A stretch of DNA of 64,000 nucleotides. It comes from a virus (Duplodnaviria > Caudoviricetes). Shown piece by piece: positions 3,425 through 19,508 of the stretch. The notes under the pieces were generated by a model that did no database searches, was not told the DNA's origin, and saw only the letters and a list, made by a program, of their open reading frames with translations. The first letter of the stretch is position 1, and each line of letters opens with the position of its first letter. The stretch covers positions 10,760-74,759 of IMG/VR virus record IMGVR_UViG_3300030433_001936; one strand, given 5' to 3'. The position numbers and the translations under genes were made by a program.

Positions 3425-4763
3425 TTGAACCTCCCCTTCTGCTATACATGCCAGCAGCGTCAGCGCCCCAATATCGGGGGTCGTCTTCGGGGTCAGATTC
3501 GGTTGCACCTTCGTTTCGTGATGTCTTTTGAGGTCCGTTGGACGGTGCTTCAACCATACCGTCATTGTTTGACCCACCACCTGATATGCCCATCAAACTC
3601 TTTCGTGGCAATCGTGATAACAAGTGCTTCAGTTCACGAAGCAGGTCTTTGAATTCGTGTGTGTCAATGGATGTGAGACCAGGTCCGAGATGACGGACAT
3701 ATGCCTTTGACACTTCCACCAATTCTTCCAATTCTGCCTTTGCAATCCGTGGCATACGGGGCGCACGGGGCTTTGGTGGACCTCGCAATGCACGGCTAGG
3801 ACCTTGACGCATTGCTTGAGCCTGACCTGGCATCAATCGCATCCTTCCCGACCCTGCTTGACCTGGATATCTCAATTGTCCCAATTGTTCACGGGGAGCG
3901 TGTGGTGTATATGGCAACATAACACCTGCACCACCAGCGCCACGGTATGCGGATTGACGACCCAACCATGAAATGTACTTGCCAGGGTTTTCCAACCGAC
4001 CAGGTCTTGGCTTTCCGACCAATGAACCGACACCCAAGTGGTGTGGGCTTAGCGTATATCGCTGACGCATCATACCCGTCTTTGAATTTGAACGAAGGCT
4101 TTTGCCTCCCTGCCCTTTGATGTTGCCAAACAACCGTTGGTGAACGGATGCACGACGCTTTGTTGAAGCCCACGGACTTCTTCCACCGATTGGTCGTGGG
4201 AATGCAGTTACTCGGTGTGCTTTTCTGCCTTTGACACCGCCAGGTCCGATACCTGACCGCATTTTGCGGTCAACAGATTCCAATGTTTCAGTGCCAACGG
4301 GGTCGCCCAACACTTTGAGAAGCAAACCGTCCCATGCTTGTTCCATTGCTTCGCTTCGTGTCAGTCCGAATGCACCCATTGTCGGCAGTTGTGGTGGGAT
4401 TTCACCCATTGCCGACCCCGTGCCTGTTCGTGCGCCAACGGCTTGGTCAAGATTTTCGCCCATGCTTCCCGCAGGACCTGTGTTTTCCGAGATTTCGTTT
4501 TGTTCAGCCAACGGTGTGGATTCTTCAAACGGTTCTTCTTCGTGGTCTTTCTTTGTTGAAATTTTGAGATGTTGCAATCCCGTCCACTTGCGTTGTTGTT
4601 CTTCACGGGATTCCTTCTTCTTTTGCGATTCCAACTCCCTTTGGTCGGGGTCGCCAGGTGCATAGACTTCTTCATCATCCGCATACATGAATTCTTCAGA
4701 TTCACTGCGCGGACTATACATCCGTGTGTCAGAACCAGTGCCTTGCTTCACGATTCTTGACAC
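3417..4763 (-). CDS. Hypothetical acidic-then-basic disordered protein with an internal AWxxLLK tag
   Basis: 448 aa ORF; EAMEQAWDGLLLK at ~4314-4352. Confidence 0.75.
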   Translation of the reverse strand: MSRIVKQGTGSDTRMYSPRSESEEFMYADDEEVYAPGDPDQRELESQKKKESREEQQRKWTGLQHLKISTKKDHEEEPFEESTPLAEQNEISENTGPAGSMGENLDQAVGARTGTGSAMGEIPPQLPTMGAFGLTRSEAMEQAWDGLLLKVLGDPVGTETLESVDRKMRSGIGPGGVKGRKAHRVTAFPRPIGGRSPWASTKRRASVHQRLFGNIKGQGGKSLRSNSKTGMMRQRYTLSPHHLGVGSLVGKPRPGRLENPGKYISWLGRQSAYRGAGGAGVMLPYTPHAPREQLGQLRYPGQAGSGRMRLMPGQAQAMRQGPSRALRGPPKPRAPRMPRIAKAELEELVEVSKAYVRHLGPGLTSIDTHEFKDLLRELKHLLSRLPRKSLMGISGGGSNNDGMVEAPSNGPQKTSRNEGATESDPEDDPRYWGADAAGMYSRRGGSNV

Positions 4764-4774
4764 ACCGAACCACC

Positions 4775-5182
4775 TTACTGCATTTTTAGTAGTTCGCTAA
4801 GGACTTGCGCCCCAAAGTGTTCGGCTTTGGTTGTGATTTCGGGTTTGCTGTCCCGTGTTTTGGCTTCAGCCCGCAACTCGGACAACGCAGACGATGTCGT
4901 GTCGTCGTCGTCATTAGCGGGGTTATCAATGTGTGCCATAACTTCGGGGTGGTATCCTACGCTTCCACCTTCATCATGCCCTGGTTTGTGTGGCATGCCG
5001 TGATGTGGGTCATCAGGGTTTTCGGGGAAAACGCCAACACTGTGTGGAACATAAATCAGTTCGTCTTTGTAGCGAAACACATCATGCGGTTCATCATCCT
5101 TCATTTCTGTTCGCAAAAACTTGGCATCATCGGGCAAACTAACGCCCTTTAGAATACTCATCATGTCTTTCAGTACACTCAT
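4775..5182 (-). CDS. Hypothetical protein
   Basis: 135 aa ORF, coupled to neighbours. Confidence 0.7.
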   Translation of the reverse strand: MSVLKDMMSILKGVSLPDDAKFLRTEMKDDEPHDVFRYKDELIYVPHSVGVFPENPDDPHHGMPHKPGHDEGGSVGYHPEVMAHIDNPANDDDDTTSSALSELRAEAKTRDSKPEITTKAEHFGAQVLSELLKMQ

Positions 5183-5619
5183 ACGAAATCCTCCACTATT
5201 GATTCAAAGGTGGAACGGATACGGGATGCCAAATTGTGATAGAAGTCATGGATTTCAGCAGGACCTGTAAATGGTCGTGCCATGTCATCACAAAATTGGT
5301 CAAATTGGTTGACCATCAAAGCAAAGCGTTGGCGCAATGGCCAGGCTTCTTCGGGGTCATCGTTTTCATATACGGCTTCAACGGTATCACGGAGCATTGC
5401 TACAAATTCATAGCGTGAATCTGCCCAACCTTCGGGGGTTGGTGCGATTCGCCCGACCAAATCCACCCAAACTCCAACGCTCGCTTGAAGCGTGTTGAAG
5501 AATGTGATGACATCTTCTTCGGGGATTGCGCCTTCTTCGGTCAAAATTTCTGCGCGTGGCATTTCCACACACATTAAATCGGCTACGGGAACGGAAACAT
5601 AAGTCGGTTTGTCATTCAT
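5179..5619 (-). CDS. Hypothetical protein
   Basis: 146 aa acidic helical ORF overlapping neighbours by 4-8 nt. Confidence 0.7.
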   Translation of the reverse strand: MNDKPTYVSVPVADLMCVEMPRAEILTEEGAIPEEDVITFFNTLQASVGVWVDLVGRIAPTPEGWADSRYEFVAMLRDTVEAVYENDDPEEAWPLRQRFALMVNQFDQFCDDMARPFTGPAEIHDFYHNLASRIRSTFESIVEDFV

Positions 5620-6313
5620 CTTGGCTCACCTCAATTACATCCGACGCATCCGTATTCAATAAGGATTCCCGCACCCGTCGCCATGTGTCGGGCGATTCTT
5701 TCGCCAATTCAATCTTCATGATGTTGATGGTGTCTGCCTTCATATTGGTTTCAGACAACGACATCCCCGTGCCGTCTTGGATTTTGATGATGTCCTTCAC
5801 CGTTTCACGGACTTCTTTGCTCAAGCCCGTCAAATTACGGACATATTGCGGGTCATTTCTGTCGGCTTCATCCAACATCAATTCCAATTCCCCGTTCAAC
5901 CGTTCAGCGTTCTTTCGCAGTTGGTCAATCTCTTCGCCAGCAGCCAACGCAATGATTGGGGCTGCTGATGCTTTGACGATTGGCTTCAAATGATGACGCA
6001 TGTGGTGATAAACAGTGGATTCAGCACATCCCAATAGTTCTGCAATGTCAGCAGATGGGAAGCCTTCAATCATGTAGCGATGTTCAAGTTCTGCCCGTTG
6101 GTCGGATGTGCAAACTACGCATTGTGAATTTGAACCCATGTGATATTCGCCCATGTGATTGCGAAAATGGCGGTCAGATGTGCCTTCACGCCATCCCATG
6201 TCCTTATCCAATTGCTTCGGGACACTGATTCCCGACACCAAATCCTGTTCAAAAGAATCGCGTGATTCATGCACACAAAAGGGACATGACTTGCGTGTGA
6301 TTCTCTCCGCCAT
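5612..6313 (-). CDS. Tandem CxxC-HTH-HxxxH DNA-binding protein with coiled coil (candidate terminase small subunit)
   Basis: Two repeats: CPFC...DRHFRNHM and CVVC...IAELLGCAESTVYHHMRHHL, followed by a coiled coil. Confidence 0.55.
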   Translation of the reverse strand: MAERITRKSCPFCVHESRDSFEQDLVSGISVPKQLDKDMGWREGTSDRHFRNHMGEYHMGSNSQCVVCTSDQRAELEHRYMIEGFPSADIAELLGCAESTVYHHMRHHLKPIVKASAAPIIALAAGEEIDQLRKNAERLNGELELMLDEADRNDPQYVRNLTGLSKEVRETVKDIIKIQDGTGMSLSETNMKADTINIMKIELAKESPDTWRRVRESLLNTDASDVIEVSQDE

Positions 6314-6361
6314 TGGTCAGTCGTAGCAATGGTTATGAAATGAACCTTTTGTAAAACTACT

Positions 6362-6604
6362 ATGGGCAGGTTGGGTCGTGCGCCAAAAAAGAACTCGTTG
6401 CCAAAAACACTGAAAGAATTGGGTGTAGCGGGCATTGACATTGCGTTGGGGCGCACAGTTTCGCCCGCCAAAGCGAATGAACGGTTGAGTATGTGCAAAG
6501 ATTGTGAATACTACAACGGTTCACGGTGCAAACTGTGTGGTTGCTTTATGCAAACCAAAGTGGGGTTGAAGAATTCCACTTGCCCGATTCATAAATGGGA
6601 CTAG
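6362..6604 (+). CDS. Small Cys-rich protein (DUF6171-like)
   Basis: RLSMCKDC..RCKLCGCFMQTKV..CPIHKW pattern. Confidence 0.6.
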   Translation: MGRLGRAPKKNSLPKTLKELGVAGIDIALGRTVSPAKANERLSMCKDCEYYNGSRCKLCGCFMQTKVGLKNSTCPIHKWD

Positions 6605-6861
6605 CGAGATAACCGACGATATACCGTCCCCGCCAATACGAAGAACCCCATGACCATGACGACAATCCATGTGAGATTGTCGCCACTCAATTGGTTGCCA
6701 CGGGTTGCCAAAATAAGGAATGCACCGAGGAATAGTGAAATCACTTGCACCATAATCATGTCAACCATGACACTGTTGCTTGTGTCATGCATGATTTTCC
6801 AGCCATCGGATAGTTGACCCACAATGCTTGTTTGTGATTTTGGTTGTTGACCTGGTTGCAA
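6601..6861 (-). CDS. Small membrane protein (2 TM)
   Basis: Two hydrophobic segments and a basic C-terminus (YRRLSR). Confidence 0.7.
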   Translation of the reverse strand: MQPGQQPKSQTSIVGQLSDGWKIMHDTSNSVMVDMIMVQVISLFLGAFLILATRGNQLSGDNLTWIVVMVMGFFVLAGTVYRRLSR

Positions 6862-6868
6862 AATTGTA

Positions 6869-7477
6869 TCACCGTCCCGTCAATACTGACCTTACAAATC
6901 CACCCGCACCTTGTCCCACAGATTGCAACACCCCTGGGTCTGCCAATGCGTTATCCAACATACCTTGCATCATGCTTTGTTGTGCCATTTGCAACAGTTG
7001 TTGCTGTTGCATGAGCGATTGTTGCACGGCTTGATTGCAGTTTGATTGCAATTGCGTCATGTCGGCTTGGATGTTTTCGGGTGATAGCGTTTGCAAAGGC
7101 GTTGGCAACGATGTTATGTCAACACACAGGTTGCCGTCTTTGTCTTCAGTGAATTTTGCGTTGCGAAAAAACTCAACCAACGATAGGTTGACGATGTTCG
7201 CAATGATGTTGGTCAGTGTTGCGAGATTTTGACCCGATAGGAATTGTTCAACGGGGCGTTGTTGATGCAACAACCGTGAAACGATTTCCAATTCGGATGG
7301 TGGCATCACGGGTTGGTTTGGATTGTACTGACCGCCCGTTGCACCCGCCATGAACGAATTCATTGCGGATGATTGTTGCTGATACGAATTGAATTGTGGG
7401 TGAGAACCGTATTGCTGACCGCCACCCAATGCCATTGGTTGTTGCGGTTGGGCTTCTTTGTTGCTGAACCACATCAT
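6869..7477 (-). CDS. Q/M-rich hypothetical protein
   Basis: 202 aa ORF in the GTPase operon. Confidence 0.7.
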   Translation of the reverse strand: MMWFSNKEAQPQQPMALGGGQQYGSHPQFNSYQQQSSAMNSFMAGATGGQYNPNQPVMPPSELEIVSRLLHQQRPVEQFLSGQNLATLTNIIANIVNLSLVEFFRNAKFTEDKDGNLCVDITSLPTPLQTLSPENIQADMTQLQSNCNQAVQQSLMQQQQLLQMAQQSMMQGMLDNALADPGVLQSVGQGAGGFVRSVLTGR

Positions 7478-7501
7478 AACACCCCAAGCATTGGCAGTTA
7501 A

Positions 7502-8467
7502 TCAGGGCTTCGGCACTGCGGGTGCATTGAATTCCACTTGATTTTCTTGAATAAGGTCTTGCAACATGCCAACTTGTGCAACTGCAGGTTGAGCCGAAGG
7601 AGCAGCATGCAACAGCGGGCTGTTGTCGCCCAATCGTGCGAATTGGCGTTGGTCAAACACAATAACAGTCAAATCATTCATGCCCGTTTCTTTGTTGGTG
7701 AAGTGTTGGATGGGAATGCCATCAGCCTTCAACATTCGGAAGAACTCTTCATATTTGACAAGTTGATGTGGAGTGTTGTCATTGTTTGACTTTCGCACAG
7801 CAGCGATTGGCACGGCAACGGTGGATACGCCACGCTTCAACTTGTCTTTGAGTGTGCCTTTTTCAGTTTCGTGTGCTTTTTCTTCTTCGTCTTCCCATTG
7901 GCAAAGCAAATCGTATAGATGCAAATGTTCGGGGCAATATGTCGCAGTCAATGTTCGTCCACTGGTCACTCCTTCCCGTGCCAAAAATGCACGGGGTTGC
8001 CCACTTACTTGGTCAACGAAATACTTGTCCCAAAGGGACAATCCCGTTTCTTCATCACGAATATCGGCATAGATGTTGCCAACGATTTGCAAAAGGTTGC
8101 CAACATCACAACCATCAACAGCACACTGCGTGGTGTTGTGATTGTATCGGTATTTACCGCCAATCCATCGTCGTGGCGACCACCATTTGCGTTTCATTGG
8201 TTTCAACAACTGATACGCTTGCTTGATGTCTTTTCGTCTTCGTTTCTTTGGGTTCGGATGCACACTTGGATAGAAATTGACCTTCGGTATTTCAATGTGC
8301 GGTGTTTGTTCGGCAGCAGCCATCATTGCACCCTGCGCTTGAGCAGCGCTTTGTAGTTGATGCACATTCATGTTGGATTCGGCTGATAACTTCACCAAAT
8401 CTGCTTGTGTGTTCATTGCCAATTGGTTGTATTGCATTTGTCGGTTCTTATCAAACATTTTTTTCAA
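7502..8467 (-). CDS. Hypothetical protein with a polybasic/Trp patch and Cys/His residues
   Basis: 321 aa ORF overlapping the GTPase stop; KKRRRK..KRKWWSPRRW. Confidence 0.75.
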   Translation of the reverse strand: MKKMFDKNRQMQYNQLAMNTQADLVKLSAESNMNVHQLQSAAQAQGAMMAAAEQTPHIEIPKVNFYPSVHPNPKKRRRKDIKQAYQLLKPMKRKWWSPRRWIGGKYRYNHNTTQCAVDGCDVGNLLQIVGNIYADIRDEETGLSLWDKYFVDQVSGQPRAFLAREGVTSGRTLTATYCPEHLHLYDLLCQWEDEEEKAHETEKGTLKDKLKRGVSTVAVPIAAVRKSNNDNTPHQLVKYEEFFRMLKADGIPIQHFTNKETGMNDLTVIVFDQRQFARLGDNSPLLHAAPSAQPAVAQVGMLQDLIQENQVEFNAPAVPKP

Positions 8468-9177
8468 CTCCCTAACATGTTCATGAGACTGTTCTCAACA
8501 TTCCACCCGATGCGGGTTGCCATCATACTCACCTGACATACAACCCCATGCTTCTGCAATTTTATCATTGCGGGTCGGAATGGGTCAAAAATGCGGTGTT
8601 CCCGCAATCGTTGTTGTTGCCAAAGCACACTTGCTTGCTCATCCCACCACTTGTCGGCTTTGTTTGCAACCAAAAATACGAACTTGGGTTTGTACTTCTT
8701 CCCTTTGATTCGTCTTGACCACCTTCGGTATCGGTATCTGCGTTCAATGATTGAATCAACGAGATATTCAAAACCTGCAATGGCATCAACAGCGGCAGTA
8801 CCACCAGTTCGTGAACGGTCATCAAACATGAAAATGATTCCTTCCACTTGTCGGTCAACCATATCGTCAACCCATAGCGACCAAAATTTGCGTTCACCAC
8901 CGAGGTCTGCCGAATGCACCACACGCTTTTTCCCTTCATATCGGATACGCTTCCGTGTTGGCATTGGCAAAACATAGTCCTTGCCAATCAGTTTTTTGAA
9001 ATGGGTGGTTCGGTGTTTTTCGCCCAATTCTTCCATTTCGCCAGGTGTGGTCATATACATGTCAAGTGTGGTTTTGCCGACTTCGGTAGGTCCGTAAATG
9101 CCGACCCTTCGTGGCTTCCAATAATCGTACAACTCTTTGCCGTAAAGAGCAGCACCGAGCAACACTGTTCCTGCCAA
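8464..9177 (-). CDS. Small GTPase (Ras superfamily, Arf/Roc-like)
   Basis: G1 GPTEVGKT, switch-I Thr (HRTT), G3 DLGG, G4 NKAD, G5-like MATRIGWNV. Confidence 0.85.
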   Translation of the reverse strand: MAGTVLLGAALYGKELYDYWKPRRVGIYGPTEVGKTTLDMYMTTPGEMEELGEKHRTTHFKKLIGKDYVLPMPTRKRIRYEGKKRVVHSADLGGERKFWSLWVDDMVDRQVEGIIFMFDDRSRTGGTAAVDAIAGFEYLVDSIIERRYRYRRWSRRIKGKKYKPKFVFLVANKADKWWDEQASVLWQQQRLREHRIFDPFRPAMIKLQKHGVVCQVSMMATRIGWNVENSLMNMLGS

Positions 9178-9417
9178 TCAAAACAACCCCGTAATCCAAC
9201 CTAGCGTTGAATTTAGAACGATGTTGTAAAGGCTCACATCCGTGTAGTATTCCACACCCGATGTGATAATAGTTGCAATTGCAGAACAAATCAATGCCTT
9301 TACCCAACCCCATGTTCGCTCATACACACGGTCAACTTGATTTGCCATGTGCAATTGGCGCAGTGTTCCTTCAACTGCGTCGTCGCTTGGTGTTTTGAAT
9401 AGCCAACCCATGTTCAT
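9178..9417 (-). CDS. Small membrane protein
   Basis: MGWLF N-terminus; hydrophobic C-terminal half. Confidence 0.7.
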   Translation of the reverse strand: MNMGWLFKTPSDDAVEGTLRQLHMANQVDRVYERTWGWVKALICSAIATIITSGVEYYTDVSLYNIVLNSTLGWITGLF

Positions 9418-9998
9418 TCCTTCTTATATCGCTTGTCAGGTTTGCCATCCTTTGTCAACGGCACTTCTTTTGTCAAATCAACACCGAGATTAACTGCTTC
9501 CTTCTTGTCGGTGCGGTGTTTTGGTGGTGGATTGAATTCGGACGGTTGTTCTTTGAATGTCTGTGGTTTCGGCTCAACAATCTGTGGGATGGCTTCATAC
9601 CCTGACATTGACATTGCCATATACGCATCGGGGTTCTCTTCCAACATCCGCAACTGCTTTTCCATTTGCATCTGTCGCATTTTCAGTTCGGTTTCCAACT
9701 GTGCATTTGCAAATTGCGAGTTCATTTCACGCAATCGTGCATCACGCACTCTTTGGGTGCGTTGCCATTGGGCTTTGCTATCCATGTTGTCTTGTAGCAA
9801 CAACTTGTAAAAGAAATACGACATACCTTGCAGGGTAAATGCCCCCATTGCATATGTCAAAGCGTTGCTATATGTGTCTTGACTTTTCAGCCACAAATCT
9901 GCGTCAAACACGGCAATAGCAGCCCCAACCAAAATGGATACGAAGCCGATAAAACCCATGACACGCAGTATGTCTTCATTCGTTTGAGCGTCTGTCAT
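9414..9998 (-). CDS. Membrane protein (2 TM) with a cytoplasmic coiled coil
   Basis: Start refined to MTDAQ (ATG 9998, GAGGGAG RBS); two TM segments then Q/E/R-rich coiled coil. Confidence 0.75.
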   Translation of the reverse strand: MTDAQTNEDILRVMGFIGFVSILVGAAIAVFDADLWLKSQDTYSNALTYAMGAFTLQGMSYFFYKLLLQDNMDSKAQWQRTQRVRDARLREMNSQFANAQLETELKMRQMQMEKQLRMLEENPDAYMAMSMSGYEAIPQIVEPKPQTFKEQPSEFNPPPKHRTDKKEAVNLGVDLTKEVPLTKDGKPDKRYKKE

Positions 9999-10222: not shown

Positions 10223-10930
10223 TCAGGCTTGGCGTTGACGACTACCCGTTGATTGGGGTTCATCAGCGCGACCTCGGACACCAACACGAGCGGGCGCTCG
10301 CATTTCAGCACGACGAGATGTTTGGGCAAACGGATTGCTTGGTTGTTCATTTCGTTGTTTGAATGATTCCGCCAAATTGTCAAGAATGTCATCAGCGTCC
10401 CCATCTTCAGCCATTTCAGCATGGCGATGTTCGTGGGGAGCAGCCTCAACACGACCAGGAATTTGTGCGGTCAGTGTTCCCGTCTTCATGCCAGGGGCGA
10501 TACCGCCTTGCACATCGGGCGAAGTGCCAGGGAAAAATTGACGGGATGGGATACCGAGTCTTCGCATTGCACCCATCAATCCACCACCGCCACGGGCTTT
10601 GGGTTCACGACCCGAATGGGGAATGGGTGGGCGACCTTCTTCCATGCGAGCCATATGATGTGCGGGGACATCTGCGCCACCACGCATTCTTTCGTAGTAC
10701 TTTTCCGATGCGGGTGTGCGACCTACGCCACCCATACCTGACCCATCATCGCTTGGGTATCCACGGGGGACACCACGGCTACCGAACATACCGCCACCCA
10801 AATCGGGTGGGGTGATTCCACGGCTTGCCATAGCCAATTCTTTAGGTCCAATCGCTTTCATCACTGCGACTCGCATATCACTGCGTAGTGCAATGTAATT
10901 TATGAACATGTCTGCCATACGGGGTATCAT
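10223..10930 (-). CDS. G/R/P/M-rich disordered hypothetical protein
   Basis: 235 aa ORF. Confidence 0.6.
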   Translation of the reverse strand: MIPRMADMFINYIALRSDMRVAVMKAIGPKELAMASRGITPPDLGGGMFGSRGVPRGYPSDDGSGMGGVGRTPASEKYYERMRGGADVPAHHMARMEEGRPPIPHSGREPKARGGGGLMGAMRRLGIPSRQFFPGTSPDVQGGIAPGMKTGTLTAQIPGRVEAAPHEHRHAEMAEDGDADDILDNLAESFKQRNEQPSNPFAQTSRRAEMRAPARVGVRGRADEPQSTGSRQRQA

Positions 10931-11216
10931 GGCGGGTCAATCCGAACAAGCACACCGCCACAAAATTCAGTATGATACTGAATACGAATCGTCCCCCGAG
11001 CGCATCAAATATCGGGAAGAACTCAACCGTGAGCGAAGGCGAAGGGGCATTTACGGGCGTGGTGGACCTGATGTTAGCCACACCCGTGCAAACACATTGG
11101 TGTTGGAAAGTCCACACAAAAATCGTGCGCGACACTTCAAAGAGCGTGGGACTTTGAAATCAAACCCCGCACCCATTGACCAAGCGTGGTCAGTTTTGAA
11201 GCATCAATTGGATTGA
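10902..11216 (+). CDS. Small basic protein (HNH/His-Me-finger-like) with a C-terminal AWxxLK tag
   Basis: RERRRRG..PDVSH...LVLESPHKNRAR resembles small basic HNH-derived marine phage proteins; ends PIDQAWSVLKHQLD. Confidence 0.6.
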   Translation: MNMSAIRGIMAGQSEQAHRHKIQYDTEYESSPERIKYREELNRERRRRGIYGRGGPDVSHTRANTLVLESPHKNRARHFKERGTLKSNPAPIDQAWSVLKHQLD

Positions 11217-12006: not shown

Positions 12007-12148
12007 GACGCAATCCACCCATGCACATGGCTTGCAGTTCTTCGTCATTTTGGAAAACAACAACATCTTTTCCGATGTCATCAAACAACGAAATTATATG
12101 CTCAATCAACGCTAATCCAACAATTGCGGTAATGACCCAACCCCACAT
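11984..12148 (-). CDS. 54 aa single-TM micro-protein (not in the ORF track)
   Basis: My translation: MWGWVITAIVGLALIEHIISLFDDIGKDVVVFQNDEELQAMCMGGLRHEGKQYD. Confidence 0.45.
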   Translation of the reverse strand: MWGWVITAIVGLALIEHIISLFDDIGKDVVVFQNDEELQAMCMGGLRHEGKQYD

Positions 12149-12179: not shown

Positions 12180-15100
12180 CTATCTGCCTTTGAGTAGTGA
12201 ATCCCACGCTAAATCAATGGGGTCGCCACGAGTGAAACCTGTTTCTTCATTCCATCGTGTGCCTTGAAATGTCGGAATGTTTTGTTCGCCTTCCGTTTGG
12301 TCGTGTTCACTTGGCAAGTTCAATCCCATTTCACCTGCGATGTTCCTTTCATTGGGTGGGTGCGGTTCATTGTCAAACGCATTCGTCATTCTGCGTGTGC
12401 GTCGTGGGACTCGTGTGCGTCCTTGAATTTCTTCTTGTTCACGCTTCATGTCAGCCATCATGTCGTCGTTATCGGGCATGATACCCATACGAGTGTCGGG
12501 CATACCCGTGTTTGGGTTGATGAAGACTTCAAGACCAGGGTTGGGTATCTCCATGCCCGCTTCTTTCATGGCTTCCAAAATTTCGGGTGGGATGCCATCC
12601 ATTGTCAGTGCTTCGGGATAGTTCTGCATAAGCCACCGTGCAAAGTCAACATTGTCGTCTTCCAAATCCATTTCCACTGCAGGTCTTGAATATGGGCGCA
12701 CTCTTCTCATCATCTCAAACGGGTGGTGTCCGTGTGCCGCTGCATCTTCAAGGAAACCGTGCATTCGTGCCATTGCTTTATCGTCAATATCATTGTAGGT
12801 GATGTCGCCCGCTTCCAATGCTTCAAACAACGCTTGCATAGTCTTTGGGTCTGCCTTTGCACCAGTGGCTAATGATTTGAAGTGGTCAAATGCCAAATCT
12901 TCGGGTTCGTTGTCAACTAATATCTCGGGCAAGTCCATCCCAAACCTTTCATTCAACATGTTGCTGAGTGCGTAGTGCATTGGGTGTTGTGAATTGAATT
13001 CGTTTGGTTGCATTTGAGATGCAAGCAAATCAGCATATTTGTTGGGGTCGTTGTAAAACGCCATCATTTCTTCATCGCTCAACGGACTACCAGGATGCCC
13101 GCCCGCTGCTTGTCGCTCAAACATCGCTTCCATTTCTTTTCGGGCGCGTTCTTGTGCGCGTTGTTGCCGAATCTGCTCTTCTTCTTTTCGTCGCTTACCA
13201 CGGTTGCGAGCCAATGACCCACTAAGGAATGCAGTTTTACCCGCTTGGTCTAGTCCCGCTTTTCCTTCGGGTCGCCTTTTTCCTTGTGGCTTTCCTGCTT
13301 TGCGGTCTTCGGCACTCAATCCCATACGACCTTGTTGCGCGATTTTGTTGCGCTCAGCCTCTTTGCGTCCACTGCTTTGTGGTCGCACATCACGGTTTTT
13401 GCGATTCCTTGCGCCAGTGCCACGCAATCGTTCTTCAAGCACATCGCCCCTCTCTTCTTGGTCTTCTTCATCCCAATCCAACTTGGCAAACAATGTAGCC
13501 CATGATTTCAATGTGTCAGTGCTAAATTGCGGTTCGTCAAAAGCGCGTGGATAACCTGTAGTGTCAATTGCTTCTTCATTGTCAGGACCGCCTTGGGTCG
13601 GGTAATTTCGCCCACCTTGTCCCGCTCTTTTCCGATAAGGGGCGAGAGAGTCATAGGAATTTCGTGCGCGTCCCCCTCTCAATTCCACTTTTGTACTGGG
13701 TTTTTCAAAAATCGGACCTGGACTGTTTGCTTCCAATGCTTCTTGTAATGCTTGTTCACTTACTCTTTCCATCTGTCTGCTTCTCATGCCCTGTATAGCA
13801 GGGTGCATAGTTTGACGGGAAAAATGTCCGTGTACTTGCTCAATATCAGCCTTGAGAACTGCCCATGCAATATCCATCGGTTCGCCCGCATTCTTTTGGT
13901 CGTCATCGCCTTCTTCGTCTTTGATGTCAAACAACGACTTCTTTGGTTTTTCAGCACCTTTGGCTCGTTGTGATGTGTTCCTTCGTGCGGGCGGTGCAGG
14001 TCTTGGATTCTTCTTTTGAGATTCAGCCAATGCGCCAATGTCAGCGAACATGCGTTCTTCATTGCGCTTTTGTTCTTCGGTCATCACTGACCCTTTGGGG
14101 TCAACGGGCAGATTCGCCATTGCTTGTTCACGATTCTTCTGTTCTCTTGCCCTTCTTCGGTCAGCCAATTTTTGTGCGGGCGTTCTTTGACCGCTTTCTT
14201 CCAAATCAGTTGTGATTGCACCGCCAGTGGCTTCCGCCATCTCCCGTGCCATCTCAAGCAATCTGTCGTTTTCTTTTTCTTCTTCAGTTCGCTCGTCCCG
14301 TGGCAAATGCCGTCTTGTGTAGTTTCGTAGTGGCGCTCGCATTGGCAATCCTTCAACTCGTTTGGTGTCTTTGACACCCGCTTCTCGTTGTTTTGCACTT
14401 TGCACATTCATGCGCCCCGTTTTGAATTCACGACCATGCACACGACCAATGGCTTCATTCAATCGGTCTTCTGCCGACATTTCATCCAATTTTTTGCGTT
14501 GCTTTGGTGTGATGACACGCACACGCTTCCCTGCGTGGTCTTTGTCATCACCGATAAATTCACGATACCAATTCGCAGTTTCTTCACCACGGTCTTTCAC
14601 TGAAACCTTATTCGCACCGAGTCTGCGTTGACCTTTTTCGGGTGCAAGCAGATTGTGAACATCAACGGGAATGCCACGACCCATTGCTTGCATCATTGCA
14701 TCATTCGTCCAATTGTCATGCAGTGGATGGTGAATTCCCAACATGTGCGTGGCATTGTCAAGAATTTTACCGTTGCGTGTGCCGATGGCAGTGTATTTTC
14801 CATCGCCTTTGAAATCGGGCGGGATAACTTTGACGGGAATGTTGTTGTCATTCGCCCATCGCTCAACCATTTCATCAACGCCACCATGACCGCCCGTGAT
14901 GATTGAATCGGGCATACCGTTCTTGTCAATCCATGCACCCATCTGGTCATCAATAACACCCAATGCGTCATAGTACTCATTCAACCGATTCATTGGGTTG
15001 ATTGGCAACAATTCGTTTGGTGGGAAATTGCCGAAGTCTTTGTGTCCGAGAACTGCCAAATGTGTTCCTTCCAATTCGGGCTTTGGTGCTGCTGGCGCTG

Positions 15101-15350
15101 CTGTTTTTGCGGGCGCTCGCACTTTTGCCTTTGGTGCAGTGGCGGGTTTGGGTTCGTTGCCCGTTCCGCCAAATTCGGGGGTCAAGTTTGCCATTGTCCC
15201 GCCCGTCAACACTGACAACAAATCTTTTGCTTCCGCAATTTGTCGCTTTTGGTCAGCGTATTCGTCTTCTTCTTCGTCGTCGTCATCGGAAGCATAGTCA
15301 AACAATGACTTCTGCTTCAGCATATACCATGCCTTGTCAATAGCCGACAT
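12180..15350 (-). CDS. Large multi-segment (polyprotein-like) virion-internal protein with three AWxxLK tags
   Basis: Start refined to MSAIDKAWYMLK (15350); internal EPMDIAWAVLK; C-terminal DPIDLAWDSLLKGR; segment ~14700-15000 resembles a YspA/SLOG-like domain (IITGGHGGVDEMVERWA..IPVKVIPPD). Confidence 0.8.
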   Translation of the reverse strand: MSAIDKAWYMLKQKSLFDYASDDDDEEEDEYADQKRQIAEAKDLLSVLTGGTMANLTPEFGGTGNEPKPATAPKAKVRAPAKTAAPAAPKPELEGTHLAVLGHKDFGNFPPNELLPINPMNRLNEYYDALGVIDDQMGAWIDKNGMPDSIITGGHGGVDEMVERWANDNNIPVKVIPPDFKGDGKYTAIGTRNGKILDNATHMLGIHHPLHDNWTNDAMMQAMGRGIPVDVHNLLAPEKGQRRLGANKVSVKDRGEETANWYREFIGDDKDHAGKRVRVITPKQRKKLDEMSAEDRLNEAIGRVHGREFKTGRMNVQSAKQREAGVKDTKRVEGLPMRAPLRNYTRRHLPRDERTEEEKENDRLLEMAREMAEATGGAITTDLEESGQRTPAQKLADRRRAREQKNREQAMANLPVDPKGSVMTEEQKRNEERMFADIGALAESQKKNPRPAPPARRNTSQRAKGAEKPKKSLFDIKDEEGDDDQKNAGEPMDIAWAVLKADIEQVHGHFSRQTMHPAIQGMRSRQMERVSEQALQEALEANSPGPIFEKPSTKVELRGGRARNSYDSLAPYRKRAGQGGRNYPTQGGPDNEEAIDTTGYPRAFDEPQFSTDTLKSWATLFAKLDWDEEDQEERGDVLEERLRGTGARNRKNRDVRPQSSGRKEAERNKIAQQGRMGLSAEDRKAGKPQGKRRPEGKAGLDQAGKTAFLSGSLARNRGKRRKEEEQIRQQRAQERARKEMEAMFERQAAGGHPGSPLSDEEMMAFYNDPNKYADLLASQMQPNEFNSQHPMHYALSNMLNERFGMDLPEILVDNEPEDLAFDHFKSLATGAKADPKTMQALFEALEAGDITYNDIDDKAMARMHGFLEDAAAHGHHPFEMMRRVRPYSRPAVEMDLEDDNVDFARWLMQNYPEALTMDGIPPEILEAMKEAGMEIPNPGLEVFINPNTGMPDTRMGIMPDNDDMMADMKREQEEIQGRTRVPRRTRRMTNAFDNEPHPPNERNIAGEMGLNLPSEHDQTEGEQNIPTFQGTRWNEETGFTRGDPIDLAWDSLLKGR

Positions 15351-15381: not shown

Positions 15382-15846
15382 TTAACCACGATTTCGCCTT
15401 CTTTTTTCCGCCAACACTTTTTCAACCGCTTTGCGGTCAAATTGGCGCAAATGTGCGACATTGCGTGGCATCACCACAATTTGTGATGGGTCGGGCATGT
15501 CGTCTTTACCGACAACACGCACCCCACCACCGTCTTTGATATTCCGTGCAGGTCCTGTTGTTGGCATATCACCAATCGGTGCATCACCACGAATACCCAC
15601 TGCAACATAATTGCCTTCGGGGTCGGCTCGCCATCGTGATGCACCATGACCATCTGCGCCCGATGGGTCATCGCCCATCATTGACCAAAATTGCTCGGGA
15701 TACTTGCCTTCCAAATAGTCGGCAATGTGTTGCAATGGTTGTGCGCTGATTTGCTGAATTGGTGGTTGGTCGGGGTAATCGGGAATCCAATTGTACAACT
15801 TTGTTTGTCGTTTCAACAACAACCATGCAGTGTCAATTGGCAACAT
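15382..15846 (-). CDS. Hypothetical protein with an N-terminal AWxxLK tag
   Basis: MLPIDTAWLLLKRQTKLYNW. Confidence 0.75.
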   Translation of the reverse strand: MLPIDTAWLLLKRQTKLYNWIPDYPDQPPIQQISAQPLQHIADYLEGKYPEQFWSMMGDDPSGADGHGASRWRADPEGNYVAVGIRGDAPIGDMPTTGPARNIKDGGGVRVVGKDDMPDPSQIVVMPRNVAHLRQFDRKAVEKVLAEKRRRNRG

Positions 15847-15851
15847 GCATA

Positions 15852-16649
15852 TCACGGAAACCTTTCGTCATATGCCTGTTGTGCATCAGCAATCGCTTGC
15901 AATGCGCTTTGCTCATAATCACCAGTTATTGCTTCTCGCTTGTCAGTCATTGCATCACCCTTTTTCCGTGCGTCTGCAATTGCATCCATTTCATCACTAT
16001 TAGTGCGTCCATGACTGTGTGGATAAAGTGCTAATTGCCTTCGCAATTTGTTTGGGTTCATATTTGCCAATCTCGGATAATTCTTACTGTATGCTTCTAA
16101 TGCATCTTCTAGTGCCGTTGCCCATACATTGTTGGACGGGCTATCGCCCAATGGCACTTGTTCAGTCGTGCGATAACCGCCACGGGATGTCGCAGTTTTG
16201 CGTTTATCCATGTCCCCACGAGTCCATCGTCGTGGCACACCTTCATGTATTGGCAATCTGCTCAATTCATCTTTTTGCTCAATGGCGTTTCTCAAAGCAC
16301 GACCACGCAGTTTGCCTTTCATCACACTCCATGCCATATCAATGGGGTCGCCTTTGACCATCGTTGGCTTTCCACCAACACCTTGCTTTTTACTGCGTTT
16401 GCGTTGCGTCATTGCCCGCTTTTCGCCTTTGCTGTGATGCCGTGCAAGTTTTGGTGTCTTGCTACTGACACGCTTTGATGGTCGGCACTTTGGGTATCCA
16501 CGCTTGCTTTTGTTCGCTTTACTGCGACCACACGGGGGATGCGAACCGTCTTTGTTCGTGCGTGATACATCCACCCACTTTTCTTTGAACCAACGATTCA
16601 GGTTTTTGACAACCATGACATCTTGGCAACCGCACAATTCACCATCCAT
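15852..16649 (-). CDS. Basic protein: WFKEKWVD..CGR..YPKCRP domain plus internal AWxxMK tag
   Basis: LNRWFKEKWVDVSRT..CGRS..YPKCRP resembles a domain of marine phages/NCLDVs; KGDPIDMAWSVMKG. Confidence 0.75.
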   Translation of the reverse strand: MDGELCGCQDVMVVKNLNRWFKEKWVDVSRTNKDGSHPPCGRSKANKSKRGYPKCRPSKRVSSKTPKLARHHSKGEKRAMTQRKRSKKQGVGGKPTMVKGDPIDMAWSVMKGKLRGRALRNAIEQKDELSRLPIHEGVPRRWTRGDMDKRKTATSRGGYRTTEQVPLGDSPSNNVWATALEDALEAYSKNYPRLANMNPNKLRRQLALYPHSHGRTNSDEMDAIADARKKGDAMTDKREAITGDYEQSALQAIADAQQAYDERFP

Positions 16650-17371
16650 TAACCAAACCTCCGTCTGTCTTTTCTTCGTTCAGCGGCAATCAGTTTGTCC
16701 CATTGTTCGGCAGTTTTTATGTTATTCGCTCTTCGCAAATGTGGATTTCTTGCTCGCAATCCCATAATTTCTCTAAACCGTTGTTCTTTTTGCCGTGGGG
16801 TCAATTTGTTGGAAGTCAACGATATTGTACCATCCTTTCCAACTGATGTGCGAGTCGGTGAATCAAGTTGTTGTATGATGTCCGCGATGCCCCGCATGGG
16901 ATGGTCTTCGCTAACTCTTTGACCAAACATAGCAGCAAGCATCCCCTTTGCACCTGCGTTTCTATGTTGATGAGCATTGAGGTCATGCATCAATTCTCGG
17001 TGTGCTGTAAGTGCTGATTCGGGATACTCCATAATGACGGCTGGGTGTTCGGTTCGTGCAGTTGCATCTATGTCTTGACTATATTTGCCATATTTACTGT
17101 CTCTTAAATCGCCCACCCCTGGTTGGTTATCTGTGGTTGCATGACCCCATTCGTGTGCGTTCAATCTCGCCAACGCATTTGCAGTGAATTTGTCAGCGTC
17201 AGCGTCAGAAAAGCCCATGTTTCGTCCATAAGGCAAAATCGCAGCCAAATTGACATTTACCGTATCAGTCCACGGGTCATAATGCCCCGCCCTGTCCCGT
17301 CCATCAAACTCCAAATTGTAGTCAGCGTCATCACTTTTCAAAAATGACCAAGCCGTATCAAATGGGGTCAT
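16649..17371 (-). CDS. Zincin-like metallopeptidase with an N-terminal AWxxLK tag
   Basis: MTPFDTAWSFLK; GHYDPWTDTVNVNL..AHEWGH (HExxH) with downstream E (TEHPA). Confidence 0.65.
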   Translation of the reverse strand: MTPFDTAWSFLKSDDADYNLEFDGRDRAGHYDPWTDTVNVNLAAILPYGRNMGFSDADADKFTANALARLNAHEWGHATTDNQPGVGDLRDSKYGKYSQDIDATARTEHPAVIMEYPESALTAHRELMHDLNAHQHRNAGAKGMLAAMFGQRVSEDHPMRGIADIIQQLDSPTRTSVGKDGTISLTSNKLTPRQKEQRFREIMGLRARNPHLRRANNIKTAEQWDKLIAAERRKDRRRFG

Positions 17372-17559
17372 TTCTTCTTCCCCTTCCCCTTAAACTTGCC
17401 ACGGCAGTATTGAACTGCCCAACCATTGGCATAAGCGGAAGGATAGACCTTGAATTTGCGCTTAGCAGCCGCTTTTCCTGCGGGGCATAACTTCTTTTCC
17501 AAATGGTCAAACGCAGCGTTTGTAGCAACACACAAATCGCAATTGCCACACCCCGTCAT
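17368..17559 (-). CDS. Small basic protein with a KVYPSAYANG motif
   Basis: AKRKFKVYPSAYANGWAVQYCR resembles the PSAYA domain of marine virus proteins. Confidence 0.7.
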   Translation of the reverse strand: MTGCGNCDLCVATNAAFDHLEKKLCPAGKAAAKRKFKVYPSAYANGWAVQYCRGKFKGKGKKK

Positions 17560-17563
17560 GTCA

Positions 17564-18100
17564 TCACCACTTCACTTTGTCTGCCCAATACGCTGCTGAC
17601 ATCGGACCTCGTGCGATGTTCTTGCGGTGTCGTGCTTTGAATGACCTTTGCCGTGCCTTTTCCTTCGGTGTCTTTGGATTTGCACCCGCACCTGACTTAC
17701 CTTGTTGACCAAATCGGATGGTTTTCACTTTGCCACCTGACCGTGCCACTACAATGTGCGATTTCTTGCCATGACCTGGTGTGCGCTTCGGTTTGTTGTA
17801 TCCCGACACACCCGCACGGGCAAGCCGTGGGTCTTTTTTGCCCTTTGCAAATGACGCATTGATACTCTTTCGGAAACGCTTCATCTTCTTCATTTTGCAT
17901 CCCGTTTCGGGTGTGCAATCGCACATCCCCATTGATGCAATGTCGCATAATTCGTCGTCATCTGACGGATAATGCAGTTGCAATGATTTGTTGGTCGTTT
18001 CATTTTCCAACTTGCATTCACCATCGGCACAACCGCATCCACGGGCTTTGCCTACGCACCCCGTTTTCAAAAACAACCATGCAGTTTCGTGTGCCGTCAT
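17564..18100 (-). CDS. Cys-rich N-terminus plus very basic domain (FGQ..SFKARH..SAAYWA), N-terminal AWxxLK tag
   Basis: MTAHETAWLFLK; KTIRFGQQG..RQRSFKARH..AAYWADKVKW resembles a widespread marine-phage basic domain. Confidence 0.75.
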   Translation of the reverse strand: MTAHETAWLFLKTGCVGKARGCGCADGECKLENETTNKSLQLHYPSDDDELCDIASMGMCDCTPETGCKMKKMKRFRKSINASFAKGKKDPRLARAGVSGYNKPKRTPGHGKKSHIVVARSGGKVKTIRFGQQGKSGAGANPKTPKEKARQRSFKARHRKNIARGPMSAAYWADKVKW

Positions 18101-18131
18101 CACACTACCCGATGCGAAAGAATGCAATAAA

Positions 18132-18743
18132 CTAATCGTTCTTCAATAATTGCCATGCAATATCCATTGGCTCACCTTTCATTTGGTCTTGCCACGCCAT
18201 CCGCTCATCTGCATTCTGAATTCCAAAATCGGGATATTCGTCAGTTTCATTGAAAACTCTGCTCATGGCTTGCTGATTGTTATCTGTGTTGGGTTGCATG
18301 TCAATTGATGTATGACCACGCAAATTCAACTCGTCTAACACTTGCTTGCGTTCTTCCGCATGCTCAGGCTTAATCATCCACAACAAATTGCCTTCCAATT
18401 CTTCCGTAGTGATGTTAGCATACGGGCGTGGGTGCAATCCCAACTCCATTTGCCGTTGGCGTTCTATCTGTTCGTCTTTGGATTCTTGTGGTTGGGCATC
18501 GTCTTCAACTGCACCAATGCTCAACAACAAATCCAACAAACCTTGCATCACTTCGGGTGGCATATCATCATCGTCATCGTCATCCACTTTCAACAAACGA
18601 TACGCCAATTTCATTGGCTCACTGTAGCGGAACATGGCATCCTTTTCCGAAGAACTACCCCCTTCACCACATCGTTCTTCGCATATCATCCGCTGATGCG
18701 GAATCGCATGTTCTTGACCACAATAAAAACAACTGTTGCTCAT
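18132..18743 (-). CDS. Acidic protein with two AW/AYxxLK tags
   Basis: EPMKLAYRLLK and C-terminal GEPMDIAWQLLKND. Confidence 0.75.
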   Translation of the reverse strand: MSNSCFYCGQEHAIPHQRMICEERCGEGGSSSEKDAMFRYSEPMKLAYRLLKVDDDDDDDMPPEVMQGLLDLLLSIGAVEDDAQPQESKDEQIERQRQMELGLHPRPYANITTEELEGNLLWMIKPEHAEERKQVLDELNLRGHTSIDMQPNTDNNQQAMSRVFNETDEYPDFGIQNADERMAWQDQMKGEPMDIAWQLLKND

Positions 18744-18758
18744 TTTTATGACCCCTTA

Positions 18759-19508
18759 TCACATTCTTCCTGCCTGTCTTTCTGATTCTGCCCACGCTAA
18801 CCATCGGTCTAATTCCCGTTGGAAATCTTCGGGGTCAATCGCCAATGTTGGGTCATGACCCACTGCATTGTTGATGTATTTGATTGCGTCATTCATGTAT
18901 TGATGCCCGTCAGGGTGGTCGTCCATTATCGCATGATGAGCGAACTGCAACGGCAAATAGTCGGGCATGTGCTGTTCCATCAATTGACGAAACATGCCAG
19001 GATGTTTCTGTTGAAGCGCATCAATCCACCCTTGACCCATATCAGTGAAACCATCAAGGAATGGCGAGAACTTCATGTCGGGGTTGCGAGCCAACACATG
19101 CGGAAGCATTTCAGCCAAGCCTTCAGCGTATCCACGACCACGGACATCTTCATCCACATGTAGTGCTAAATCCCGTTCTGTGCTTATGTCAGGTACAGTT
19201 TCTTCCGACAACGGGTGATACACAAGTTCACCATTCGGCATAAGCGTTGACCCAATTTCCAAACTCCCACGGTATGTAGGTCCGTATGGAGTGGGCTTTT
19301 CGCCAATATGCCCAGTCATTTGCCCACGCTCTTTGTCATGCTCAAAATAAACGGGAACATCCTTTTTCTCTTCGGGGTCATAGAACTGACCTTCATATTC
19401 ATCCATGTCGTCATCAGTGTTGACCCGTCGCACGGTTTCGTGCCGTAGTGGGGCTTTGACGACATGCGTTTTGAGAAGCAACCATGCTTGCTCAAACGCC
19501 CCCTGCAT
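18759..19508 (-). CDS. GNAT-like acetyltransferase with an N-terminal AWxxLK tag
   Basis: MQGAFEQAWLLLK; LHVDEDVRGRGYAEGL matches GNAT acetyl-CoA-binding motif A. Confidence 0.55.
   Translation of the reverse strand: MQGAFEQAWLLLKTHVVKAPLRHETVRRVNTDDDMDEYEGQFYDPEEKKDVPVYFEHDKERGQMTGHIGEKPTPYGPTYRGSLEIGSTLMPNGELVYHPLSEETVPDISTERDLALHVDEDVRGRGYAEGLAEMLPHVLARNPDMKFSPFLDGFTDMGQGWIDALQQKHPGMFRQLMEQHMPDYLPLQFAHHAIMDDHPDGHQYMNDAIKYINNAVGHDPTLAIDPEDFQRELDRWLAWAESERQAGRM

What the first reader, a model, noticed from the sequence alone, without database searches (positions are those of the whole stretch)
4314..19508. A portable [I/M/F]-D-x-A-W-x-x-L-K tag on about ten unrelated proteins: candidate archaeal-virus capsid-targeting/maturation system
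Seen: 13 clear copies. EAMEQAWDGLLLK (4314-4352), PIDQAWSVLK (11172-11201), DPIDLAWDSLLK (12189-12224), EPMDIAWAVLK (13851-13883), MSAIDKAWYMLK (15315-15350), MLPIDTAWLLLK (15811-15846), DPIDMAWSVMK (16317-16349), MTPFDTAWSFLK (17336-17371), MTAHETAWLFLK (18065-18100), EPMDIAWQLLK (18141-18173), EPMKLAYRLLK (18588-18620), MQGAFEQAWLLLK (19469-19508), and MSVAFDKAWAVLK (40287-40325). Weaker variants: AAFDHLEK, DIKQAYQLLK, WATLFAK. Copies differ at synonymous sites, so selection is at protein level. They sit at N-termini, C-termini and between domains, with hydrophobics on one helix face. Established: T4 internal proteins use a ~10 aa capsid-targeting sequence removed by the prohead protease. 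Inference: this is an unrelated, functionally analogous tag that loads a menu of enzymes and basic proteins into the head, possibly cleaved after K.
Basis: partly seen in the sequence, partly recalled or inferred. Interest (0 to 1): 0.9.

Follow-up and report, generated by a model that had tools for sequence, protein, structure and literature searches.

The report
Portable docking tag on magrovirus proteins
A whole lineage of abundant ocean viruses that infect archaea puts the same 10-12 residue helical peptide on about a hundred unrelated accessory proteins, most likely so that they can be loaded into the virus head, which would be the first such tag known in an archaeal virus.

Summary
All 13 listed peptides are at the stated coordinates, with one 1-nt slip. 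The window is a magrovirus-like archaeal tailed virus encoding TFIIB, a thermosome, PolB, TerL and a portal.

The tag reads [M/G]-x-P-[MIFL]-[DE]-x-A-W-x-[LVI]-L-K. A DNA pattern scan of IMG/VR returned more than 116 loci, and 102 of them have magrovirus homologues. They hold 192 distinct tags: 133 N-terminal, 42 internal and 17 C-terminal. The carriers fall into about 100 BLAST-unrelated protein clusters. Synonymous codons vary freely, so selection acts on the peptide.

In genomes where the structural strand is known, tags lie almost only on the strand of the capsid, protease, portal and terminase genes. They never occur on those core proteins. Internal tags mark the joints of module chains, with up to 6 tags in 803 aa, and the same modules are separate tagged genes in other genomes. 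The commonest cargo has an ADP-ribosyltransferase fold.

Best reading (about 0.45): a docking tag, possibly also a cleavage site, that loads effectors into the procapsid, as the T4 capsid-targeting sequence does. Neither binding partner nor cleavage is shown. I found no paper describing the motif. The scan had noted this tag only on this same genome.

The parts
18759..19508 (-). 249-aa carrier with an N-terminal tag (MQGAFEQAWLLLK, nt 19470-19508). The body is GNAT-acetyltransferase-like, as a lead only.
   Evidence: Atlas nearest named clusters are GNAT at 0.88-0.90. An R-G-R-G-Y-A motif is seen in the sequence.
18132..18743 (-). 203-aa carrier with two tags. A degenerate internal one (EPMKLAYRLLK, 18588-18620) is followed by poly-Asp. 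A C-terminal one (EPMDIAWQLLK, 18141-18173) is followed by 2 residues and the stop.
   Evidence: (scores 10.5 and 32.8).
17564..18100 (-). 178-aa carrier: N-terminal tag (MTAHETAWLFLK, 18065-18100), a Cys-rich stretch and a basic C-terminal domain.
   Evidence: phrog_7595 at 1.4e-35 on residues 88-178. Tag.
16649..17371 (-). 240-aa carrier with an N-terminal tag (MTPFDTAWSFLK, 17336-17371). It has an HEWGH motif and is zinc-metallopeptidase-like, as a lead only.
   Evidence: Atlas structural neighbours are IrrE/M78/ArdC-type peptidases at TM 0.34-0.41. A homologous domain lies in a 908-aa protein of G003.
15852..16649 (-). 265-aa carrier: DUF5872 domain, then an internal tag (DPIDMAWSVMK, 16317-16349), then a further domain.
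   Evidence: PF19197 at 1.9e-9 on residues 16-88. Tag score 28. Relative P0002 joins the same DUF5872-tag directly to the body of the next gene.
15385..15846 (-). 154-aa carrier with an N-terminal tag (MLPIDTAWLLLK, 15811-15846). It is a divergent member of the commonest tagged family, which has an ADP-ribosyltransferase (Tpt1/KptA-like) fold. This copy lacks the family's Y-H-G-T motif.
   Evidence: Alignments A2 and A3. AlphaFold model with pLDDT 80. Foldseek matches to Tpt1/KptA, Arr and PARPs at E 1e-4.
12180..15350 (-). 1056-aa three-tag protein, with the start taken at 15350. Tags: 15315-15350 (N-terminal), 13851-13883 (middle), 12189-12224 (C-terminal, 'AWDSLLK' variant plus 2 residues). 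The first module has a SLOG/YpsA-like hit.
   Evidence: PF10686 at 7.6e-6, which is below the family cut-off. phrog_289 at 7e-7.
10902..11216 (+). 104-aa carrier on the opposite strand with a C-terminal tag (PIDQAWSVLK, 11172-11201, plus 4 residues). Its 75-aa body is a module found in more than 20 related proteins.
   Evidence: BLAST to 24 relatives at E down to 3e-40.
3417..4763 (-). 448-aa conserved head-module protein (GTG start) with an internal tag variant (EAMEQAWDGLLLK, 4314-4352). Orthologues keep a tag at the same place with drift such as EPMDIAWQLLK, EPMEDAWSSLLK and GAFVRAFDVLK.
   Evidence: (cluster 13, 17 loci).
204..1376 (-). 390-aa Q/G/A-rich protein just upstream of the terminase gene. 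It ends in a degenerate tag (DAFSRIQDILKGN, about nt 207-245). In at least 8 of 22 related loci the gene at this position ends with a clear tag plus 2 residues.
   Evidence: TerL and portal lie just left of the window.
40287..41015 (+). 242-aa carrier with an N-terminal tag (MSVAFDKAWAVLK, 40287-40325). It is the only tag inside the replication-strand block of this genome.
   Evidence: score 27.6. No family or relative found.

Best explanation
The peptide is a Pro-capped amphipathic helix of about 10 residues. It acts as a position-independent docking tag. Each 'tag + module' cassette, whether alone or strung into chains, is brought to one conserved viral partner inside the assembling procapsid. 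That partner could be the scaffold part of the S78 protease-scaffold protein, the inner face of the HK97-type capsid protein, or the portal. In this way a variable set of effectors would be enclosed with the DNA and delivered to the next host cell. The effectors include ADP-ribosyltransferase-fold, GNAT-like, Dam-methylase, HD-hydrolase, SLOG, zincin-like and basic DNA-binding proteins. The prohead protease may then cut chains at or next to the tags.

Shown: the tag, its spread, its portability, its joint positions and its genomic restriction. Inferred: the partner, encapsidation, cleavage and delivery.
For: 1. Same tag on about 100 BLAST-unrelated clusters across more than 100 magrovirus loci. 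The peptide is under selection, not the DNA.

2. Tags sit on the strand of the structural genes: 10/0, 13/0 and 9/1 in three genomes, P = 0.012, 0.003 and 0.01. In five relatives chosen by capsid protein alone, 23 of 24 tags are on that strand. No tag lies on the capsid protein, protease, portal, TerL or fibre-like proteins.

3. Tagged genes lie among head genes: before TerL, between TerL and the portal in G001, after the capsid gene in G003, and in cluster 13.

4. An S78 prohead protease fused to a scaffold-like region, plus a SU10-type capsid protein, are present in complete relatives.

5. Module chains are joined by tags, with up to 6 tags in 803 aa. The modules are different from one another and are separate N-tagged genes elsewhere.

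6. The commonest cargo has an ART fold. Its tag is modelled as a separate N-terminal helix of lower confidence on a linker. This parallels T4 Alt. A tagged Dam methylase parallels P1 DarB.

7. Precedent: T4 internal proteins are diverse defence proteins that share only a capsid-targeting sequence (PMC3012670). The first 30 residues of P1 DarB suffice for packaging (PMC9024508).
Against: - There are no virion proteomics for any magrovirus, and no binding partner was identified.
- The largest tag clusters sit directly next to the divergent control region, so they may be early genes that act in the producing cell.
- Two carriers in this genome are on the other strand.
- C-terminal tags that end 2 residues after K make little sense as cleavage sites.
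- Tiny zinc ribbons and a (p)ppGpp-type HD hydrolase are not obvious injected cargo.
- The specificity of the S78 protease is unknown.
- All nine near-complete tag-bearing genomes also carry a chaperonin, so a chaperonin partner cannot be excluded by absence.
Confidence: 0.45

Rival explanations
1. The tag docks its carriers onto a hub that is not the capsid. Candidates are the virus chaperonin, the neighbouring membrane/GTPase operon or a virus factory, or a host protein (short-motif mimicry). The effectors would act in the infected cell rather than being packaged.
For: Tag islands of 8-12 genes lie at the very start of the structural-strand block, next to the divergent region. They are followed by the conserved membrane/GTPase operon in G000, G001, G006 and G008. 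Every near-complete tag-bearing genome has a Cpn60/TCP-1 gene. The carriers look like host-takeover enzymes.
Against: Tags also occur deep inside the head and tail gene blocks and at the far end near the fibre genes. The usual chaperonin client, the capsid protein, is untagged, while tiny zinc ribbons and disordered Q/G-rich proteins are tagged. No known archaeal hub motif (PIP box, APIM) fits the consensus. Host genomes could not be scanned here.
Confidence: 0.25
2. The tag is mainly a proteolytic junction signal. A viral or host protease recognises it and cuts module chains into single proteins, with no role in localisation.
For: Heterologous modules are joined by a 12-residue conserved junction, with an extra [GS]-E preference that is seen only at internal and C-terminal copies. 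The same modules occur as separate genes elsewhere. An S78 protease is universal in complete relatives, and a zincin-like carrier exists.
Against: 69% of tags sit at residues 2-12 of single-module proteins, where cutting would achieve almost nothing. 10 of 17 C-terminal tags stop 2 residues after K. The strict amphipathic-helix pattern is unlike typical extended protease sites.
Confidence: 0.12
3. The tags bind one another. Multivalent carriers would then condense into a protein body, either an inner-body-like core or a cytoplasmic condensate.
For: Many carriers have 2-6 tags and long disordered Q/G/A- or charge-rich linkers. This resembles multivalent organisers such as carboxysome CsoS2 (own knowledge).
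Against: Most carriers have a single tag. Invariant D, A, W and K point to a defined groove rather than loose self-association.
Confidence: 0.08

Closest known systems
Capsid-targeting sequence (CTS) of phage T4 internal proteins (IPI-III, Alt, gp67, gp68)
   Same: A peptide of about 10 residues shared by otherwise unrelated, fast-evolving accessory or defence proteins. Genes occur in variable clusters. One cargo is an ADP-ribosyltransferase. A prohead protease is present (PMC3012670, PMC9024508).
   Different: No sequence likeness. The T4 CTS is N-terminal only and ends in a Glu cleavage site for the gp21 protease. Here the tag also works, or at least is conserved, internally and at C-termini. 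It joins module chains, the protease is of the S78/HK97 type, and the host is an archaeon. Packaging is untested.
N-terminal packaging signal of phage P1 DarB (Dar system)
   Same: An N-terminal signal directs a large enzyme (methylase/helicase) into the head for co-injection (PMC9024508). A tagged Dam methylase occurs here.
   Different: The P1 signal is known for one protein and is not a shared consensus on many families.
Encapsulin cargo-loading peptides
   Same: Short terminal peptides on diverse enzymes dock to the inner face of an HK97-fold shell (own knowledge, not checked here).
   Different: Encapsulin peptides are Gly/Ser/Leu-rich and extended, mostly C-terminal, and the cargo genes sit next to the shell gene. 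Here the tag is a Trp-centred helix in a true virus. Binding to the capsid protein is untested.
Encapsulation peptides of bacterial microcompartments
   Same: Amphipathic helices at N-termini, C-termini or between domains, on flexible linkers, carried by unrelated cargo enzymes (own knowledge).
   Different: Those peptides keep only a hydrophobic pattern, not invariant residues. No microcompartment shell genes are present here.
C-terminal capsid-binding tails of scaffold and protease proteins (HK97 gp4, herpesvirus scaffold)
   Same: A short terminal helix brings a protein into the procapsid (own knowledge). The magrovirus protease-scaffold has its own invariant Trp-containing C-tail...M-S-W-D-D-V-H-R-L-A, which loosely fits [DE]-x-[AS]-W-x-x-[LV]-[KH].
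   Different: That tail is a distinct motif on one protein. The tag is on about 100 families.

Membership tests
T4-type capsid-targeting sequence | Short leader shared by otherwise unrelated proteins | tested here: met
   About 100 unrelated clusters share the tag.
T4-type capsid-targeting sequence | Strictly N-terminal leader that ends in an L/I-x-E site cut by a gp21-type protease | tested here: not met
   31% of tags are internal or C-terminal. The consensus ends in L-K and has no L/I-x-E. The protease is S78, not gp21-type.
T4-type capsid-targeting sequence | Necessary and sufficient for encapsidation; carriers found in virions and injected | not testable with these tools
   The virus is uncultured and no proteome is available.
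Encapsulin cargo-loading peptide | Binds the inner surface of an HK97-fold shell protein | not testable with these tools
   No multimer prediction is available. An HK97/SU10-type capsid protein is present in relatives.
Encapsulin cargo-loading peptide | Gly/Ser/Leu-rich extended consensus, mostly C-terminal | tested here: not met
   The consensus is P-phi-D-x-A-W-x-phi-L-K. It is predicted helical and 69% of copies are N-terminal.
Microcompartment encapsulation peptide | Amphipathic helix at a terminus or between domains on a linker | tested here: met
   Helical hydrophobic moment is 0.39-0.53. The model shows helix 3-18 followed by linker 19-30.
Microcompartment encapsulation peptide | Encoded together with BMC shell proteins | tested here: not met
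   No such family appeared in the Pfam scans of the window or its relatives.
Viral polyprotein cleavage junction | Conserved motif at every joint between heterologous modules | tested here: met
   P0016 has 5 tags and P0031 has 6. Their modules differ and are separate genes elsewhere.
Viral polyprotein cleavage junction | Motif confined to joints; cleavage demonstrated | tested here: not met
   Most tags are at the extreme N-terminus of single-module proteins. Cleavage itself is not testable here.
PCNA-interacting peptide (PIP box / APIM) | Q-x-x-[LIM]-x-x-[FYW]-[FYW], or [KR]-[FYW]-[LIVA]-[LIVA]-[KR] | tested here: not met
   The logo has neither pattern. Carriers are excluded from the replication block.
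ADP-ribosyltransferase fold (commonest cargo family only) | ART/Tpt1-like fold with an H-x-[ST] and G-x-G-x-[YF] NAD-site pattern | tested here: met
   Foldseek matches Tpt1/KptA at E 1e-4, then Arr and PARPs. Y-H-G-T and G-x-G-x-Y columns appear in A2. The window's own copy lacks these motifs.

The most novel reading that the evidence does not exclude
Magroviruses run a general, position-independent cargo-loading system. A Trp-centred helix docks single effectors and multi-effector chains onto the inner face of an HK97-type capsid or its scaffold, and the prohead protease then releases them. That would be an encapsulin-like loading principle working in a true virus. It would be the first protein-delivery tag of any archaeal virus, and a ready-made handle for packaging foreign proteins.
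Probability: 0.2. Interest if true: 0.9.

Novelty: new variant of a known kind. Interest (0 to 1): 0.8.

Why it matters
Magroviruses are among the most abundant viruses of the surface ocean, yet they are uncultured and most of their genes have no known function. One recognisable tag singles out, in every genome, a set of about 5-14 accessory proteins that share a fate. That turns a large part of the unknown gene content into a defined and testable class.

If the tag loads proteins into the head, it gives three things. It would be the first insight into what archaeal tailed viruses inject along with their DNA. It would link phage capsid targeting with encapsulin and microcompartment cargo loading. 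It would also provide a 12-residue handle for packaging foreign proteins.

The tag is also a practical marker for this virus lineage in metagenomes, and a natural example of domain shuffling at a fixed joint.

Tried and rejected
- A locus search with the 1056-aa carrier gave only one remote hit. The word-based protein search with the 154-aa carrier gave 5 hits.
- Host test: I wanted to count the motif in Poseidoniales genomes. The genome scan with the thermosome found only an Ignavibacteria MAG. The thermosome homologues I followed were again viral contigs. The host test was therefore not done.
- The phage collection holds no magrovirus. The best TerL hits are Bacteroides phages at 26% identity.
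- Literature: there is no mention of the motif in the magrovirus papers I read. Motif strings find nothing relevant.
- Rejected as tags: the TerL 'PIDSAWFHIK' of L061, which aligns to a conserved TerL segment. P0044, a cellular repeat protein. About 14 of the 116 loci, which have no magrovirus homologue and odd contexts.
- A DNA-level explanation (recombination site or 5' mRNA signal) is rejected because of codon diversity and the C-terminal and internal copies.
- Chaperonin presence or absence could not discriminate, because all nine genomes have one.
- I considered reading through stop codons to fuse neighbouring genes for a cis-docking fold. No tagged gene is in frame with a candidate partner except a poor case (L122), so I dropped it.

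Full report
**What the window is.** The window is bases 10760-74759 of a 74,759-bp linear IMG/VR virus record estimated 62% complete. It encodes a TFIIB homologue, a thermosome-type chaperonin, a family-B DNA polymerase, an RFC-like ATPase, an SNF2 helicase, a DNA methylase and a Cas4-like nuclease on the + strand. Just left of the window, on the - strand, lie a large terminase subunit and a portal protein. This is the published gene set of group-A magroviruses, which are tailed viruses of Marine Group II archaea (PMC5434244). The LuxR-type HTH gene and the pyruvate carboxyltransferase gene seen here are also reported for the related family Apasviridae (PMC11706807).

**Observation.** The one error is 19469, which should be 19470. 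A six-frame scan of the whole record finds 12 strict copies that lie in open frames, plus the EAMEQAWDGLLLK variant, and none in the extra 10.7 kb. Ten of the 12 are on the - strand between 12.2 and 19.5 kb.

A position matrix built from many copies gives 34 hits in three genomes, against 0-0.4 in shuffled proteins.

**Spread.** The DNA pattern for P-[IM]-D-x-A-W-x-x-[LIMF]-K was scanned against IMG/VR. Nearly all hits are in frame inside open reading frames, and many loci carry 3-8 further copies that the pattern did not require.

- 102 of the 116 loci share homologues with three reference magrovirus genomes. About 14 look like chance hits.
- After removing duplicates there are 192 tags: 133 N-terminal, 42 internal and 17 C-terminal. 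In 84 of the N-terminal ones, Met lies exactly four residues before the Asp. Ten of the C-terminal ones stop exactly two residues after the Lys.
- The consensus is [M or G/S]-x-P-[MIFL]-[DE]-x-A-W-x-[LVI]-L-K.
- Ascertainment does not create this consensus. Of 54 bare A-W-x-x-[LIMF]-K hits in five genomes, 39 also have the three upstream features.
- All synonymous codons are used at the fixed residues, so the peptide is what is selected.
- Five relatives chosen only by their capsid protein, which is 72-100% identical in at least 469 contigs, all carry the tag core. They have 2-10 copies each, against 0-1 in the control.
- A profile of the tag was searched against 1.84 billion representative proteins. 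It gave 39 significant hits, nearly all proteins with two to six tags. The one hit whose context was checked is in a magrovirus-like contig. One hit is a cellular repeat protein and is a false positive.

**Carriers.** With the tags masked, the carriers fall into about 100 BLAST clusters. Pfam recognises few of them: a D12 Dam methylase, an HD_4 hydrolase, a SLOG domain, a GNAT, DnaJ-type zinc fingers, DUF5872 and DUF6321.

The commonest family was folded with 24 homologues, giving pLDDT 80. The tag forms a lower-confidence helix (residues 3-18), followed by a linker and then a compact core. The core matches tRNA 2'-phosphotransferase (Tpt1/KptA), rifampin ADP-ribosyltransferase and PARP domains. 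The window's own copy (15385-15846) has lost the family's Y-H-G-T motif.

Weaker leads make 18759-19508 GNAT-like and 16649-17371 a zinc peptidase of the IrrE/ArdC kind.

**Where the tags sit in genomes.** Two complete relatives were read in full: G001 (103 kb) and G003 (107 kb, with terminal repeats). They hold an S78 prohead protease fused to a scaffold-like region, followed by a SU10/HK97-type capsid protein. In the window's record these two genes lie beyond the left contig end.

High-scoring tags are 10/0, 13/0 and 9/1 on the structural-gene strand versus the other strand. In the capsid-selected relatives the split is 23 of 24. No tag lies on the capsid protein, protease, portal, terminase or fibre-like proteins.

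Tags occur in three zones:

- A hypervariable island of 8-12 genes at the start of this strand, next to the divergent region. This is the window's 11-19.5 kb block.
- Among the head genes. These include a conserved protein with an internal tag (window 3417-4763) and the variable low-complexity protein just before the terminase, which ends in the tag in at least 8 of 22 loci.
- At the far end, near the fibre-like genes.

**Joints.** Internal tags coincide with module borders.

- A 466-aa protein of L010 with a tag at residue 203 corresponds to two adjacent N-tagged genes in L098.
- A 347-aa protein of L059 with tags at residues 100 and 262 corresponds to separate genes in L040 and L067.
- P0002 joins the window's DUF5872-tag directly to the body of the next gene, as if the stretch between two tags had been deleted.
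- P0016 (5 tags) and P0031 (6 tags) are chains of different modules.
- Internal and C-terminal copies show an extra [GS]-E before the Pro.

**Mechanism.** The fixed Pro, Asp, Ala, Trp, Leu and Lys on an amphipathic helix point to one conserved protein groove rather than to membrane binding. The data fit a docking tag for a shared viral partner.

I think procapsid loading is the most likely use, for four reasons: the restriction to the structural strand, the exclusion from both core structural and replication proteins, the effector-like cargo, and the presence of a prohead protease. It follows the precedent of the T4 capsid-targeting sequence (PMC3012670) and the P1 DarB signal (PMC9024508). 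The chains suggest that the protease may cut at the tags.

None of this is shown. The partner is unknown, and the tag island could be early genes. All nine near-complete tag-bearing genomes also carry a chaperonin, so a non-capsid hub remains a serious rival. A pure cleavage signal is unlikely, because most tags sit at the extreme N-terminus of single-module proteins.

**Novelty.** I found no description of this motif in the magrovirus papers I read or by searching for motif strings. The scan's own earlier notes mention it only on this same genome. It works like known capsid-targeting or cargo-loading tags but is not a member of any of them. The sequence, the helical form, the use at all three positions, the role as a chain joint and the archaeal virus host all differ.

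Noticed in passing
window 26139-58350, + strand: 15 of 49 + strand ORFs end in -EE or -DE. The DNA there reads ...GGAGGAAGAAGAATGA..., so a Shine-Dalgarno-like GGAGG and an overlapping ATGA stop/start are coded inside the last codons of the upstream gene.
   Followed up: partly
L126:1-4609 (-), left of the window; G001 86530-91800; G003 39397-45279: A giant protein of at least 1536 to 1960 aa is encoded between the portal and the prohead protease. It has an ATP-dependent DNA-ligase adenylation-domain hit near its C-end (PF01068, 3e-6 and 2e-4). It may be a large head-internal enzyme.
   Followed up: partly
G001 91810-93273; G003 37981-39351 and relatives: The S78 prohead protease is fused to a scaffold-like helical region. 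Its C-terminal tail ...[LM]-A-x-M-[ST]-W-D-[DE]-V-H-R-L-A is almost invariant. It is a likely capsid-binding tail and loosely resembles the tag.
   Followed up: partly
window 11137-12081 (-) and 10902-11216 (+): An HMGL-like pyruvate carboxyltransferase (2e-27) sits untagged inside the tag island. Its 3' end overlaps, convergently, a real + strand gene that ends in the tag.
   Followed up: partly
window 204-1376 (-) and the same position in 22 loci: The gene just upstream of the large terminase is hypervariable and Q/G/A-rich or otherwise low in complexity. It is unlike a small terminase, and it often carries the tag at its very end.
   Followed up: partly
nine near-complete relatives (G001-G005, G011-G014): Every near-complete tag-bearing genome encodes a Cpn60/TCP-1 chaperonin. 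The 2017 description reports chaperonins in only 12 of 26 magroviruses (PMC5434244). Whether chaperonin-less groups lack the tag was not tested.
   Followed up: partly
window 6601-9998 (-) and relatives: A conserved block of small, partly membrane-like genes always follows the tag island and precedes the LuxR-type HTH gene (clusters 8, 11, 16, 18, 19 and 24). Its function was not examined here.
   Followed up: no
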